DNA from: a virus
Reading direction: 5' to 3' (one strand)
IMG/VR virus record: IMGVR_UViG_3300045988_138996
Coordinates: 96,001 to 160,000 of that record
DNA: 64,000 nucleotides
Below the pieces are notes generated by a model. It did not search any database and had not been told where the DNA came from. It saw only the letters and a list, made by a program, of their open reading frames with translations. Made by a program: the position numbers and the translations under genes. This document shows positions 9,668 through 17,377 of the stretch, one piece after another (the stretch's first letter is position 1; every line of letters begins with the position of its first letter).

Positions 9668-12600
9668 ATGGCTTACGATAGTTTTATTATAAATTCGGCA
9701 TATAAACAAAGATCGTTTACGATGGCTGGATTTGATACGCTTTCTTCGTTAAATACGATGTTAAGCAACGTTCGTCTCGAAAGACGAAAGCATACCGAAT
9801 TACTTTTAAACACTACGACAACTATGCCAGTTGCCCTTAACGGTATGGCTAATAAAGAATATGTATTAGACGACAAAGCATATATTTTTGATATCGAAAC
9901 ATTGCCATCTATTAAAGTAGGCAATGAACAAATACCTGATATTATGTGGCAGTATACGGCTCGCCGTGAAGGTGAAACATATAATATGTTCTCTGGTATC
10001 GATGAAAAAGCAGAAACGGCTTATCGTAATTTATTTTTAAAACCAGATTTTAAATATGAAGAATTAAGCCGAAGTGAAAAGGTAGTTGCCGATACGTTAG
10101 CTCGTATCGGTAAAAACTACCGTGAAGGTTCCGGTAGTATTCCTGAAGCATTATCTCCATTAGGATATAAAGATTATGCCGACATGAAAAAATATCAAGA
10201 GCTAATCGAAAACGGTATTAATGCATTATCTAAAGAAGGCGATGCTACTCATTTAATAGCTAAAGAAATTGTCGATCATATTCATAAAGATACGACTCTC
10301 GTTACTTACAACGGTAAAGCATTTGACGTTAATATGACATCGCAACAAATAGCTCGTGATACCGGCATCGATAAAAAAGTTCGTGGTCTTGCTATTAATA
10401 AACTAAGTAAGGCTAATCATTATGATCCGTATCGAGAAATTCGTACGGCATATCAATTAAATCCACAATCAATGAAAGAAGCATATCGAGAACATATTCT
10501 TGGTAGCGATATTGCTAAAGAACGATTAATCGGCGAATTTACTGGTTGGTCTAACAAACAAACAAGCTTTGGTTTGGCAGTTGGTCTTGATGTTAATGCT
10601 GCGCATAGTGCTATCGAGGATACTGGCGTATTCGAAAATTTAATGAAAAATGCTGGCTTTAGAGCATTTATGGCTAAAGCTATCGAGATTAATAATTCAC
10701 CAAAGAATAAAGTTCAGTATAAAGTAAGTGCTGGTGCCACAATATTCAATACATCTTCATTGTGGAATCGTGATCGCGGCATTTTAATGTTTCAACAATC
10801 AGAAGATGGCGGTTATGAATTTCCACAATTTTCTGCTCGTGCTAATGATAACGGTGTTTTTACTGCTTATAATAATGCTCCGATTGTAACTAATTCTGCA
10901 TATAATGTAAAATTTGTCGGTCAACTTGATCGTAATGATTCTTCTCTCGGAGCTTTTGCTTATGAGCATGCAAATGAACTAGGCTTAAAAGGTAATGATG
11001 ATATTCATTATATTGCATTAGAAGAAGCAAGCGGACGTGGTCCTGTTCGTTATATTATGGGTTCTAAAAAAGTATTAGAAGATACGTTAACCGACAGCTT
11101 TAGAGTATTAAGCAACACCTCAGCAAATGGTGAAACGACATATAACTTTGAGCAAATTGTATCGGCTGCCAATTCTTTAGGCATCCCGATGGGACGACCT
11201 GACAATACGATGGATAAAGTTATAGCTGCATCAGCTAAACGTCAATCGTCTGCTAATGCTTGGGACAAAATTGAATCTGGAGCTTTTAATCGTGAAGCAT
11301 ATGTAACTGGCCCGTTAATTAAAAACTTTGCAGAAAATGAACGAGGCATGGCCCTTAATATTTTAGGCGATGCATTAGAACTTGGTACCGACGTAGCGAC
11401 TGCAGCTTCAGCTCGTAAAGCTGGAGATACTGGCGGTATTATTACCGACGACTTTATGAAACGTACCGAACAATTGTTCGGTATTGCTAAACAACATTAT
11501 GGTATCGATTCTAATGATCCTAAGAGTAAGATGTTCTCTGTTGCCGGCGTTCAAAAAATTATTGAAAATATTAATAATGAAGATGTATTATCTATGGTTA
11601 ATATGGTACAGACAGAAGCAGCTGCTCTTCCTGGCGTAAAAGATTATCACAAAACTGTAGCTATGAATTTATTAGCCAAAGAATATCATAAAGTATATGA
11701 TGAATTGCATCCAGAATATGGATACCGTGCATCGATATCTGATAAGATGTTAGATGGTATATCTAAAGATATGCATTTATCTGGTGGCGCTTTTTCATTT
11801 GATGTTCGACAAGAAAATGCTGAGAAGTCTATCGGTTCTATTAAGAATACGATGAAAAGATTACTCACACGACCTGGTCGTGAATCTGTTTCTCGCTCTG
11901 ATTATGTTAAAGGTTATTCTGTATTAGTTAAAAATATTTTCGGAGCGAAGAGTAGACAAGCTCAAGGCTTCGAAAATTTAGTCGAACGTCAAGGTTCTGA
12001 TATGACAGATTTTGCAGAATACATTTTTAGAAATGTACAGCAATTGCGAATCGATACATATCGAGACGGCAAGAAACATCATGAGATGTTTAGAACAAGT
12101 TCGACACCAAGCAAAGATGTTTCTTTGTTTAAAGATGACGACGAATTAGTTAATCGTTTACGTGCCAGCGTTATAAAGAATCTAAAAGCACTGTCTTCGA
12201 CGCCAGAAGATTCTGTTAATAGTATATATAACTATTTAATGGGTAATATTACTCGTAAAGATTTCGATATCTTTTCTAATCGTAATAATTATGCTGGTGC
12301 ATTATATGATCAAGTTTCTGATCATATGAAATCATTTGCTAATCAATTAGAATTCTTGGCTCATCAAAATCAACAAGATATTTTAATTAAAGATGGCAGA
12401 CTTATGATGGGCAAGGGGAATACATTCCGTGATATCACAGGAAATATTCCTTTACTAAAAAGATTAGATAGTGTTCCAGTTCTTGCCTTTGGCAATACTA
12501 ATATTGCTATTAATCCGATATTAAATGTTGTTGAGGGCGCTAAACCAAATGAAAAATTTGTGCAAATTGGTATCAAAGGCTTATCTACATATGATCATTT

Positions 12601-17377: not shown

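What the first reader, a model, noticed from the sequence alone, without database searches (positions are those of the whole stretch)
9668..17377. Two-barrel (beta/beta'-like) RNA polymerase signature in a 2569-aa protein encoded inside a contractile-tail module
Seen in sequence:
- Residues 2078-2125 read 'MLDRQPHNYAKSMAFAKVYYDPSIADNAIRTNTAFNMLAKADHDGDKV' (DHDGD = nt 16022-16036).
- About 1,200 residues upstream, 'GRLMMGKGNTFRD...NIAINPILNV' (nt 12395-12529) resembles the second-largest-subunit barrel 'GDKxAxRHGxKG....(I/V)(I/L)xNP'. This second match is weak.

Established knowledge:
- The catalytic double-psi beta-barrel of the largest RNAP subunit reads 'NRQPSLHKMSMMxHRVKV..FRLN........NADFDGDEM' in archaea and eukaryotes, and 'NRAPTLHRLGIQAF...NADFDGDQM' in bacterial beta'.
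- By eye RQP, SM, (R/K)V, P, (F/I)RxN and ADxDGD align with a single 3-residue length difference.
- The order, beta-like barrel then catalytic beta'-like barrel, matches the single-chain two-barrel polymerases (SPbeta YonO, the virion RNAP of crAss-like phages, QDE-1-type enzymes).

Inference:
- The gene sits between the tape-measure candidate and the baseplate hub, a slot occupied by tail-lumen or ejected proteins. It is therefore a candidate virion-delivered RNAP.
- The virion RNAPs I know of are in N4-like podoviruses (T7-like fold), crAss-like podoviruses, and phiKZ/AR9-type jumbo phages (multisubunit).
- I do not know of one embedded in a Mu/PBSX-type contractile-tail module of an SD-using low-GC lineage.
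Basis: partly seen in the sequence, partly recalled or inferred. Interest (0 to 1): 0.9.

Follow-up and report, generated by a model that had tools for sequence, protein, structure and literature searches.

The report
RNA-polymerase-like core in tape-measure-slot protein
A 2569-residue tail protein of an uncultured ~230-kb contractile-tailed phage carries the catalytic barrel of cellular-type RNA polymerases plus a DNA-proofreading-type exonuclease, so it probably enters the host with the DNA to start transcription, which was known only for one long-tailed Thermus phage.

Summary
ORF 9668-17377 encodes 2569 aa with a single R-x-P...DHDGD signature (aa 2081-2123). All five beta'-side catalytic residues are invariant in 13 lineages that share only 12-30% identity. 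A 106-column family profile finds only RNAP largest-subunit active-site barrels at the top of the PDB, and in register. An AlphaFold model finds only beta'/Rpb1-type chains by Foldseek.

The context also needs correcting. The gene is not between the tape measure and the hub. It sits in the slot annotated as tape measure (gp146) in Bacillus phage 0305phi8-36, between a gp145-like giant protein and the gp147-like hub. That order holds in eight divergent loci.

Cultured phages carry members: Bacillus vB_BceM_WH1 gp095, Edson, KLEB27-3 gp034 and Acinetobacter ME3 gp36.

The protein also has a conserved N-terminal DEDDh exonuclease, a C-terminal transmembrane helix and an almost invariant terminal domain.

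The closest precedent is the tape-measure-fused virion RNAP gp96 of Thermus phage P23-45. I file this as a new variant of a known kind. Polymerase activity, the second barrel and ejection are all inferred.

The parts
9668..17377 (+). Gene for the 2569-aa giant protein. It is a member of a family found in ~100-236 kb viral contigs and in cultured jumbo myoviruses.
   Evidence: ORF list and translation. There are 52 close homologs on ~230-kb contigs.
9845..10657 (+). N-terminal DEDDh (DnaQ-like) 3'-5' exonuclease domain, aa ~60-330. Motifs: Exo I FDIET (D75, E77), Exo II YNGKAFD (N215, D220), Exo III HSAIED (H313, D318).
   Evidence: Pfam RNase_H_2 PF13482 scores E 3.6e-5, 24.2 bits, above its cut-off of 22. 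D75 and N215 are invariant; E77, D220, H313 and D318 are kept in at least 10 of 12 lineages, and L019 departs at most of these positions. The family profile hits DnaQ, the RB69 and Pol delta exonuclease domains, ExoI and DEDDh in the PDB at E 0.006-0.3.
12380..12562 (+). Conserved beta-rich block, aa ~905-965. It is structurally conserved but has no conserved catalytic residues.
   Evidence: P928 is invariant and G942 and G961 nearly so. K916 is not conserved. The block lies outside both AlphaFold models.
13655..14137 (+). Best remaining candidate for a second-barrel region, aa ~1330-1490. It has a conserved acidic E1330 (and D1341), a beta-rich domain at aa 1352-1474, and basic K1481 and K1488. 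This is unproven.
   Evidence: Conserved charged columns. AlphaFold places strands at model positions 148-221 and 263-270 with pLDDT 50-62. The E1330-to-K1481 spacing of 151 aa resembles Rpb2 D837-to-K979 (PMC2919709), which is inference only. The profile search against the PDB found no RNAP beta.
15365..16567 (+). Beta'-like module, aa ~1900-2300. The extent is approximate.
   Evidence: Foldseek aligns 320-600 columns of the model to bacterial beta', cyanobacterial gamma, AR9 beta' and Pol I A190. Against BFVD it matches viral RNAP subunits and LEF-9.
15665..16057 (+). Catalytic double-psi beta-barrel of the beta' type (DPBB-A), aa ~2000-2130, with a helical insert.
   Evidence: Model strands are at aa 2002-2009, 2021-2023, 2040-2043, 2075-2082, 2090-2097, 2106-2108 and 2124-2128, with pLDDT 66-78. 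Profile A7 against the PDB gives AR9 beta' at E 0.014, phiKZ at 0.024 and Pol V at 0.03.
15908..15916 (+). R2081-Q-P2083, the equivalent of Rpb1 R446/P448 and E. coli beta' 'NRAPTLH'.
   Evidence: Invariant in all lineages. It aligns to the R-x-P of the RNAPs.
16022..16036 (+). D2119-H-D2121-G-D2123, the metal-binding aspartate triad.
   Evidence: The three Asp are invariant in every lineage, and G2122 in all but two: P0055 (DADED) and ME3 (DHDQD). The triad aligns to DFDGD/DYDGD of RNAPs and to RpoC 442-467. In the model it lies in the loop between a short helix and a strand.
16418..16441 (+). Conserved motif E-x-x-L-S-x-K-N (aa 2251-2258, K2257 invariant). It may be a nucleic-acid- or NTP-contacting lysine, such as a bridge-helix or funnel equivalent.
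   Evidence: K2257 is invariant and S2255 nearly so. There is no PDB profile match, so the assignment is inference.
17036..17092 (+). Predicted transmembrane or hydrophobic helix, AVLGALAVAAGSVLVAGYG (aa ~2457-2475).
   Evidence: Read directly from the sequence. It is conserved in the distant members shown, and 0305phi8-36 gp146, WH1 gp095 and ME3 gp36 have an analogous C-terminal hydrophobic segment.
17093..17374 (+). C-terminal ~95-aa domain (GGYIINV...YEDMNANDIANYLDSVF). It is almost identical even in a homolog with 28% overall identity. It probably docks to the hub or tail tip.
   Evidence: Alignment A1. N2515 is invariant and G2511, Y2512 and I2514 nearly so. There is a weak profile match to the C-termini of 0305phi8-36 gp146 and WH1 gp095. 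PMC2147016 notes that only the last 60 residues of gp146 align with its BtI1 counterpart.
2632..3435 (+). Context: homolog of the tail chaperonin (0305phi8-36 gp144, WH1 gp097).
   Evidence: tblastn E 1e-10 to 1e-20. Annotations.
3447..9650 (+). Context: 2067-aa homolog of 0305phi8-36 gp145, a virion protein by mass spectrometry.
   Evidence: blastp 9e-47 to gp145. tblastn matches to WH1, KLEB27-3 and Moorella phage. It is always immediately upstream of the family member.
17403..26933 (+). Context: 3176-aa baseplate hub, homolog of 0305phi8-36 gp147, which contains a T4 gp27-like domain.
   Evidence: phrog_20474 at E 8e-146. tblastn to gp147, WH1 gp094 and ME3 hub. It is always immediately downstream.

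Best explanation
The gene encodes the giant tail-lumen protein that fills the tape-measure slot of a ~230-kb jumbo myovirus of the 0305phi8-36 lineage. It is a chimera of four parts:
- an N-terminal DEDDh 3'-5' exonuclease;
- a long, mostly helical body;
- a catalytic module of the cellular (beta') RNA-polymerase type, with an intact R-x-P plus Asp-triad active site;
- a C-terminal membrane helix and a docking domain.

Proposed mechanism. The C-terminal domain holds the protein at the hub or tail tip. On sheath contraction the protein leaves through the tube ahead of or with the DNA, and the hydrophobic C-terminus engages the membrane. The polymerase module then transcribes the first phage genes from the entering DNA, as shown for the tape-measure-fused virion RNAP gp96 of Thermus phage P23-45. 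The exonuclease acts on nucleic-acid ends in the host.

Shown here: the domain signatures, their conservation, their sequence and fold similarity to RNAP beta', and the gene's fixed place in the tail module.

Inferred: virion packaging of this particular protein, ejection, polymerase activity, the template, and the existence of the partner barrel that every known enzyme of this class needs.
For: 1. The catalytic residues are invariant across very divergent members (12-30% identity): R2081, P2083, D2119, D2121 and D2123. These are five of the eight residues that PMC2919709 reports as invariant in all two-barrel RNAPs.
2. Profile A7 against 177,635 PDB sequences returns RNAP largest-subunit active-site barrels as its top 10 hits, aligned R-x-P to R-x-P and DxDGD to DxDGD. 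AR9 nvRNAP beta' scores E 0.014, phiKZ 0.024, Pol V 0.03 and ASFV RPB1 0.2.
3. Pfam RNA_pol_Rpb1_2 is the only hit for the window fragment (E 0.05) and the family matched by most members.
4. The AlphaFold model has pLDDT 66-78 over the barrel and places DHDGD on a loop before a strand. All top 50 Foldseek PDB hits are beta'/Rpb1-type chains, with E 1e-4 to 4e-3 and probability up to 1.0. BFVD hits are viral RNAP subunits, LEF-9 and RlpA-type barrels.
5. The order tail chaperonin, gp145-like, this gene, hub is conserved in eight divergent loci and in cultured phages.
6. The protein in the same slot in 0305phi8-36 (gp146) was found in virions by mass spectrometry and is annotated as the tape measure (PMC2147016). 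WH1 gp095 and KLEB27-3 gp034 are annotated as structural.
7. There is a precedent for a tape-measure-fused virion RNAP that transcribes pre-early genes (PMC10770324).
8. The exonuclease motifs are conserved, with a Pfam hit above threshold.
Against: - No second (beta-like) barrel was detected. Profiles of aa 1318-1525 and 1885-2035 give no RNAP beta in the PDB. hhalign against E. coli RpoB finds nothing. No second-largest-subunit chain appears in the Foldseek top 50.
- The individual profile E-values are marginal (0.01-0.2), and Pfam is below its gathering score.
- The model is of low overall quality (mean pLDDT 53, pTM 0.29, TM-scores below 0.25), so nothing can be said about two barrels facing each other.
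- The bridge-helix assignment is unconfirmed.
- 0305phi8-36 gp146 and the Moorella phage proteins in the same slot lack a DxDxD, so the polymerase module is not needed for the slot's structural role.
- There is no proteomic or biochemical data for any family member carrying the motif.
- No sequence similarity to P23-45 gp96 was detected. In gp96 the RNAP is at the N-terminus of the tape measure, whereas here the module is near the C-terminus.
Confidence: 0.55

Rival explanations
1. The protein is only one subunit of a split polymerase. The beta'-like module is real and active, but the partner barrel with the two basic residues is supplied in trans by another virion protein, as in the multisubunit virion RNAPs of phiKZ- and AR9-type jumbo phages.
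For: The closest profile and fold matches are split beta' subunits of AR9 and phiKZ and cellular beta'. No second barrel was found in cis.
Against: The conserved core of the adjacent gp145-like protein shows no RNAP similarity in the PDB. Pfam and PHROG scans of every other large ORF in the 64-kb window show no RNAP beta family. The rest of the ~230-kb genome could not be examined.
Confidence: 0.15
2. The catalytic module is a nucleotidyl transferase other than a DNA-dependent RNA polymerase, for example a PolD-like DNA polymerase or primase, or an RNA-dependent enzyme. It would work together with the N-terminal proofreading-type DEDDh exonuclease on the ends of the injected genome.
For: A DEDDh exonuclease fused to a polymerase active site is typical of DNA polymerases, and the profile hits include the RB69 and Pol delta exonuclease domains. 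Two-barrel enzymes include archaeal PolD and RNA-dependent QDE-1 (PMC10770324, PMC2919709).
Against: All profile and fold hits of the barrel are DNA-dependent RNAP largest subunits. No PolD or QDE-1 hit appears at E<10 or in the Foldseek top 50. The two domains lie about 1,800 residues apart. L019 and ME3 members lack the exonuclease but keep the barrel.
Confidence: 0.1
3. The protein is essentially a structural tape measure or tail-lumen protein. Its barrel would be an exapted or relic domain, for example a DNA- or metal-binding plug, with no polymerase activity.
For: No partner barrel was found. Proteins in the same slot in 0305phi8-36 and the Moorella phage lack the motif. The model is mostly helical, as tape measures are. 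Double-psi barrels also occur in non-polymerase proteins such as RlpA.
Against: All five catalytic residues, plus the Gly of DxDGD in nearly all lineages, are strictly retained at 12-30% overall identity. That is hard to explain without selection for catalysis. The similarity to beta' extends over 300-600 aligned columns, not just the barrel.
Confidence: 0.2

Closest known systems
P23-45 gp96, the tape-measure-fused virion RNA polymerase of a Thermus siphovirus (PMC10770324)
   Same: Both are giant proteins in the tape-measure position of the tail module that carry a DxDxD two-barrel-type catalytic signature. Both suggest the same biology: a tail-lumen protein ejected into the host that transcribes the first genes.
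   Different: No sequence similarity was detected, and gp96 is not among the PDB profile or Foldseek top hits. In gp96 the RNAP is N-terminal and both barrels are resolved. Here the module is near the C-terminus and only the beta'-type barrel is seen. The hosts here are phages with contractile tails and ~100-236 kb genomes. This protein also has a DEDDh exonuclease. P23-45 additionally encodes a paralogous non-virion RNAP (gp64), and none was seen here within the 64-kb window.
Beta' subunits of the multisubunit RNAPs of jumbo phages AR9 and phiKZ (PDB 7S00/7S01 chain d, 7OGP chain A)
   Same: These are the best sequence-profile matches of the catalytic barrel (E 0.014-0.024, in register) and are among the best fold matches. 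They too come from jumbo myoviruses, and versions of them are packaged in the virion (PMC7598289).
   Different: They are separate ~400-500-aa subunits that assemble with beta-like subunits and are packaged in the head. This is a 2569-aa chain encoded in the tail module with extra domains. Identity is only ~10-13% in the fold alignments.
Single-chain two-barrel RNAPs: SPbeta YonO, 0305phi8-36 gp99, QDE-1 and crAss-like phi14:2 gp66
   Same: All share the R-x-P...DxDGD active-site signature in one large polypeptide. gp66 is virion-delivered.
   Different: Pfam RdRP (PF05183) does not hit. QDE-1 and gp66 structures do not appear among the PDB profile hits at E<10 or in the Foldseek top 50. crAss-like proteins appear only weakly in BFVD (E 0.05). 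Their partner barrel lies ~220 aa upstream of R-x-P, and no such barrel was found here.
0305phi8-36 gp146, the 'hypothetical tape measure protein' (EF583821; PMC2147016)
   Same: It has the same slot between the gp145 and gp147 homologs and a similar length (2537 vs 2569 aa). It shares a C-terminal hydrophobic helix and a 'GYxxNV' terminal domain. It was detected in virions by mass spectrometry.
   Different: There is no BLAST similarity, no DxDxD and no exonuclease motifs. That phage instead carries a separate YonO-like RNAP, gp99.

Membership tests
Two-barrel (double-psi beta-barrel) RNA polymerase superfamily | A beta'-type barrel carrying invariant Arg and Pro (Rpb1 R446/P448) and the DxDxD metal-binding triad. 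| tested here: met
   R2081, P2083, D2119, D2121 and D2123 are invariant. They align in register with RNAP structures. Fold matches are exclusively beta'/Rpb1-type.
Two-barrel (double-psi beta-barrel) RNA polymerase superfamily | A second (beta-type) barrel supplying one Asp and two basic residues (Rpb2 D837, K979, K987). | tested here: inconclusive
The candidates E1330, K1481 and K1488 are conserved but have no profile or fold support. The model is too poor to decide.
Two-barrel (double-psi beta-barrel) RNA polymerase superfamily | A bridge helix and trigger loop downstream of the catalytic barrel. | tested here: inconclusive
   There is an invariant K2257 in a conserved helical motif, but no profile match. 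Long Foldseek alignments (550-600 columns) to full-length beta' hint at more than the barrel.
Two-barrel (double-psi beta-barrel) RNA polymerase superfamily | Template-dependent NTP polymerisation. | not testable with these tools
   This needs biochemistry.
Pfam RNA_pol_Rpb1_2 (PF00623) | A score at or above the gathering threshold of 25.3 bits. | tested here: not met
   The score is 14.3 bits, E 0.05, on the 106-aa fragment. It is the only hit, and 3 of 11 members match. There is no hit on the full-length protein at E<=1.
Tape-measure-fused virion RNAP (P23-45 gp96 type) | Encoded in the tape-measure slot of the tail module. | tested here: met
   Synteny holds with 0305phi8-36 gp143-gp147 and with WH1, KLEB27-3 and ME3. 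A caveat is that two giant ORFs lie between the chaperonins and the hub, and which one measures the tail has not been shown experimentally.
Tape-measure-fused virion RNAP (P23-45 gp96 type) | Sequence or structural homology to gp96 or gp64. | tested here: not met
   No gp96 or gp64 hit appears in the PDB profile searches or in the Foldseek top 50.
Tape-measure-fused virion RNAP (P23-45 gp96 type) | Present in virions and transcribes pre-early genes. | not testable with these tools
   Only indirect evidence exists. The 0305phi8-36 protein in the same slot was found by mass spectrometry. The 'structural' labels on WH1 gp095 and KLEB27-3 gp034 have an unknown basis.
YonO / QDE-1 / eukaryotic RdRP family (Pfam PF05183) | A profile match to RdRP, with the partner barrel ~220 aa upstream of R-x-P. 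| tested here: not met
   Pfam gives no hit at E<=1. QDE-1 is not among the PDB hits. Nothing conserved of that kind lies 150-300 aa upstream.
DEDDh (DnaQ-like) 3'-5' exonucleases / Pfam RNase_H_2 (PF13482) | Exo I (DxE), Exo II (NxxxFD) and Exo III (HxxxxD) motifs, and a profile match. | tested here: met
   PF13482 scores 24.2 bits against a cut-off of 22. All three motifs are conserved. PDB hits are DnaQ, polymerase exonuclease domains, ExoI and DEDDh.
Phage tape measure proteins | Position after the tail chaperone genes and before the hub; largely helical; a hydrophobic or transmembrane segment; length proportional to tail length. | tested here: inconclusive
   The position is met, though shared with the gp145-like ORF. 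The models are mostly helical. A C-terminal hydrophobic helix is present. Tail length is unknown for this uncultured phage.

The most novel reading that the evidence does not exclude
The most novel reading not excluded is this. A whole lineage of contractile-tailed jumbo phages infecting Bacillus, Acinetobacter and uncultured human-associated low-GC hosts builds its tape measure from a single-chain, beta-beta'-fused, cellular-type RNA polymerase coupled to a DEDDh exonuclease. The enzyme would be threaded through the tail tube, anchored in the host membrane by its C-terminus, and would transcribe (and perhaps process) the incoming genome. It would have arisen independently of the Thermus phage P23-45 solution.
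Probability: 0.3. Interest if true: 0.85.

Novelty: new variant of a known kind. Interest (0 to 1): 0.68.

Why it matters
If the module is active, tail-lumen delivery of a transcription enzyme is not a curiosity of one Thermus siphovirus. It would be a recurrent solution, present in contractile-tailed jumbo phages that the 2021 comparative survey (PMC7824862) does not count among jumbo phages encoding their own RNAP.

It would also raise a mechanical question: how does a cellular-type polymerase core pass unfolded or extended through a tail tube and refold?

It would add a very divergent branch to two-barrel polymerase evolution, one nearer to multisubunit beta' than to YonO or QDE-1.

The fused DEDDh exonuclease, which has no counterpart in the known virion RNAPs compared here, would need explaining.

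The hypothesis is directly testable because cultured members exist: Bacillus phages vB_BceM_WH1, Edson and KLEB27-3, and Acinetobacter phage ME3.

Tried and rejected
- tblastn and megablast of the target against 50,697 phage records found nothing. PHROGs gave no hit.
- phmmer of the full protein, and a 3-sequence profile of aa 1250-2449, against the PDB returned only spurious hits.
- The first AlphaFold run (aa 1250-2395, 3-sequence alignment) was unusable at pLDDT 40.
- The first job against the 1.84 billion representatives failed on profile length. The rerun found only 9 hits.
- Two alignment-based homologous-protein searches added no new lineages. Single-protein scans of IMG/VR added nothing new.
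- The second barrel was sought four ways. Profiles of aa 1318-1525 and aa 1885-2035 found no RNAP beta. hhalign of six regions against E. coli RpoB and RpoC aligned only the catalytic barrel, to RpoC. The core of the neighbouring gp145-like protein found nothing.
- A bridge-helix check of aa 2228-2300 found nothing.
- I considered and rejected the idea that the C-terminal domain is shared with the other giant ORFs of the window. There is no BLAST similarity.
- I considered that WH1 might encode a YonO-like enzyme among its large hypothetical genes at 144-151 kb. None has a DxDxD. Only 50 kb beyond the tail module was inspected.
- The family alignments in Supplementary Data 3 of PMC10770324 are not held as text, so I could not run profile-profile comparison with the 23 curated RNAP families.
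Full report
**1. The observation**

The ORF at 9668-17377 (+) is real and encodes 2569 aa. Both quoted peptides sit at the stated coordinates. 'MLDRQPHNY...ADHDGDKV' is aa 2078-2125 and DHDGD is nt 16022-16036. The 'GRLMMGKGN...NIAINPILNV' stretch is nt 12395-12529. DHDGD is the only DxDxD in the protein.

A bare D.DGD is not rare. It appears in 5% of shuffles of this protein, and a second one lies in the neighbouring hub protein. R.P followed 28-48 residues later by D.DGD appears in only 0.2% of shuffles.

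**2. A conserved family**

Close homologs (87-100% identity) lie on ~230-kb contigs labelled Caudoviricetes. One homolog is 64% identical and one 28% (P0052). A profile search of 1.84 billion representatives added P0053 (3203 aa), P0057 (2709 aa) and the fragment P0055. An IMG/VR scan added five more lineages of 1784-3288 aa on 100-236 kb viral contigs.

Cultured phages also carry members. These are Bacillus phage vB_BceM_WH1 gp095, with NRYP...KADHDGD and a 35-bit hit of the barrel HMM, plus Edson and vB_BauM_KLEB27-3 gp034. A shorter, more divergent form is Acinetobacter phage ME3 gp36 (SREP...GGDHDQD). It was found through Foldseek and confirmed in the record.

In a 12-sequence L-INS-i alignment at 12-30% identity, very few columns are invariant:
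- D75 and N215, both in the exonuclease;
- P928, G2025 and G2074;
- R2081, P2083, D2119, D2121, G2122 and D2123;
- K2257 and N2515.

So the five residues that PMC2919709 lists as the universally invariant beta'-side residues of two-barrel RNAPs are exactly the ones this family never changes.

**3. Is it an RNAP beta'-type barrel?**

Four independent tests agree.

- (a) A 106-column profile of the region (11 sequences) was searched against all 177,635 distinct PDB sequences. Its ten best hits are only RNAP largest-subunit active-site domains: AR9 non-virion RNAP beta' (E 0.014), phiKZ (0.024), plant Pol V (0.03-0.07) and ASFV RPB1 (0.2). R-x-P aligns on 'NRNPT/HRNPT/NRPPT' and DxDGD on DYDGD/DFDGD. 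Each E-value is marginal. The unanimity and the register are what count.
- (b) Pfam RNA_pol_Rpb1_2 is the only Pfam hit of the window fragment (E 0.05, 14 bits, below the 25-bit cut-off). It is also the family matched by the most members.
- (c) hhalign places the motif on E. coli RpoC 442-467.
- (d) An AlphaFold2 model of aa 1205-2300 was built from a 14-sequence alignment. Mean pLDDT is 53, but it is 66-78 over the barrel. The model forms strands at aa 2002-2009, 2021-2023, 2040-2043, 2075-2082, 2090-2097, 2106-2108 and 2124-2128. DHDGD lies on the loop between a short helix and the last strand.

Foldseek with that model returns only beta'/Rpb1-type chains in the top 50 of the PDB: bacterial beta', cyanobacterial gamma, AR9 beta' and Pol I A190. 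E-values are 1e-4 to 4e-3, probabilities reach 1.0, and 320-600 columns align. In BFVD it returns family members, viral RNAP subunits, nudivirus LEF-9 and RlpA-type barrels. TM-scores are low because the global arrangement of the model is poor. The match is therefore local-fold evidence, not architecture.

**4. The second barrel**

K916 is Asn in P0052, and no basic residue is conserved there. The block is structurally conserved, though (P928 invariant).

The best alternative is a set of conserved charged residues: E1330, then K1481 and K1488. They flank a predicted beta-rich domain at aa 1352-1474 with pLDDT 50-62. The acid-to-lysine spacing of ~150 aa resembles Rpb2 D837 to K979/K987. The ~600-aa distance to R2081 would suit a beta-beta' fusion.

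Against this, several searches found nothing:
- The profile of this region finds no RNAP beta in the PDB.
- The region 150-200 aa upstream of the catalytic barrel finds none either.
- hhalign against RpoB gives nothing.
- No second-largest-subunit chain is in the Foldseek top 50.
- The conserved core of the neighbouring gp145-like protein has no RNAP similarity.

'Two-barrel' therefore remains unproven. The downstream invariant K2257 motif (ExxLSxKN) could be a bridge-helix or funnel lysine, but it has no profile support.

**5. Other domains**

The N-terminus (aa ~60-330) is a DEDDh exonuclease. Pfam RNase_H_2 scores above threshold. The Exo I, II and III motifs are conserved in all members that have the domain. 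PDB profile hits are DnaQ, the RB69 and Pol delta exonuclease domains, ExoI and DEDDh. L019 and ME3 lack this domain.

The C-terminus has a hydrophobic helix (aa ~2457-2475) and a ~95-aa domain. That domain is nearly identical even between proteins with 28% overall identity. It is not shared with the other giant ORFs of the window.

**6. Context**

Pfam and PHROGs are almost blank for the window. The downstream 3176-aa ORF, however, matches the baseplate hub gp147 of Bacillus phage 0305phi8-36 and its relatives. The upstream 2067-aa ORF matches gp145, a virion protein by mass spectrometry. ORF 2632-3435 matches the tail chaperonin gp144, and ORF 29967-30758 matches a baseplate J/wedge protein.

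The order gp145-like, family member, hub holds in all eight divergent loci examined and in WH1, KLEB27-3 and ME3. In WH1 and ME3 the annotated records also show a tail sheath gene upstream; the KLEB27-3 stretch fetched begins at a tail tube gene. The contractile-tail setting is therefore right.

The target occupies the slot of 0305phi8-36 gp146, the 2537-aa 'hypothetical tape measure protein' found in virions (PMC2147016). It is not a slot between tape measure and hub. gp146 itself has no DxDxD and no detectable similarity except a similar C-terminal helix and 'GYxxNV' domain. That phage carries a separate YonO-like RNAP, gp99 (PMC2147016). The Moorella phage gene in the same slot is interrupted by a transposase and also lacks the motif.

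**7. Mechanism**

The most likely reading is a tape-measure-slot, tail-lumen protein held at the hub by its C-terminal domain. It would be expelled on contraction, and its polymerase module would transcribe the first genes of the entering DNA. This parallels P23-45 gp96 (PMC10770324). The exonuclease would be an added activity on nucleic-acid ends.

The steps that are shown:
- the domain identities at signature and fold level;
- their conservation;
- the synteny.

The steps that are inferred:
- packaging of this protein;
- ejection;
- catalytic activity and template;
- the partner barrel.

I put this reading at about 0.55. The rivals are a partner barrel supplied in trans (0.15), a different nucleotidyl transferase working with the exonuclease (0.10), and a structural protein with a non-catalytic barrel (0.20). 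Strict retention of the whole active-site signature at 12-30% identity argues against the last.

**8. Comparison with known systems and novelty**

It works like P23-45 gp96, but it is not a detectable member of that family. It differs in several ways:
- No similarity to gp96 was detected.
- The module is at the opposite end of the protein.
- The phage has a contractile tail.
- The protein has an extra exonuclease.

By sequence and fold the barrel is nearest to multisubunit-type beta' (AR9, phiKZ, bacterial). It is not close to YonO, QDE-1 or crAss gp66.

[quoted passage not shown] Literature searches for tape-measure and virion RNAP combinations found only the P23-45 work.

I therefore rate it a new variant of a known kind. 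It is of real interest because it generalises tail-delivered transcription to contractile-tailed jumbo phages and is testable in cultured Bacillus and Acinetobacter phages. That interest is tempered by the missing second barrel and the absence of any experimental data.

Noticed in passing
window 3447-9650 (aa ~1200-1300 of the 2067-aa ORF): The gp145-like giant protein has a strongly conserved core motif: GIYGF...SEIxRRFLP...INPIxNxMPDWLPG...GDPY...RLPGExYER...LHPD. It is shared with 0305phi8-36 gp145, WH1 gp096, the Moorella phage and KLEB27-3. It has no Pfam, PHROG or PDB match, so its function is unknown.
   Followed up: partly
window 17093-17374 (last ~95 aa of the target): The C-terminal domain is almost 100% identical between proteins that are only 28% identical overall (window vs P0052). 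This points to a very tight interaction constraint, probably with the hub, or to recent exchange of this segment.
   Followed up: partly
window 42155-47149, 47136-48995, 48995-49630; also 51221-51865 and 51862-52488: Adjacent ORFs share paralogous N-terminal domains (24-34% identity). This resembles the 'paralogue families' that anchor variable fibre or enzymatic domains in 0305phi8-36.
   Followed up: no
window 49661-51211: A sub-threshold BspA-type leucine-rich repeat (Pfam LRR_5, E 2e-4) lies at the C-terminus of a 516-aa ORF in the baseplate/fibre region. It may be a receptor-binding protein.
   Followed up: no
window 17403-26933 (hub protein, aa 1876): There is a second D.DGD (EYDSDGDN) with no upstream R-x-P, inside the region homologous to 0305phi8-36 gp147. 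It is probably a metal-binding loop unrelated to polymerases.
   Followed up: no
L028 (Moorella phage MTATph1, OR602862) 8934-16290: The tape-measure-slot gene appears split by an inserted transposase (CDS0027, transposase CDS0028, CDS0029-0031). None of the pieces has a DxDxD.
   Followed up: partly
BFVD hits of model mb2216b7cd30e, ranks 10 and 19: A 'minor tail protein' of an uncultured siphovirus (A0A8S5SD80) matches the beta'-like model at E 0.004. A 'YprB ribonuclease H-like domain-containing protein' fragment of an uncultured virus (A0A8S5RKK9) appears only weakly (E 0.015, probability 0.16). Other tail-protein/RNAP fusions and further family members may exist in public viromes.
   Followed up: no
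L019 6248-11599 and L033 (Acinetobacter phage ME3) 11173-15984: Two family members are much shorter (1784 and 1603 aa) and lack the N-terminal exonuclease while keeping R-x-P...DxDxD. The exonuclease is therefore an optional accessory of the family.
   Followed up: partly
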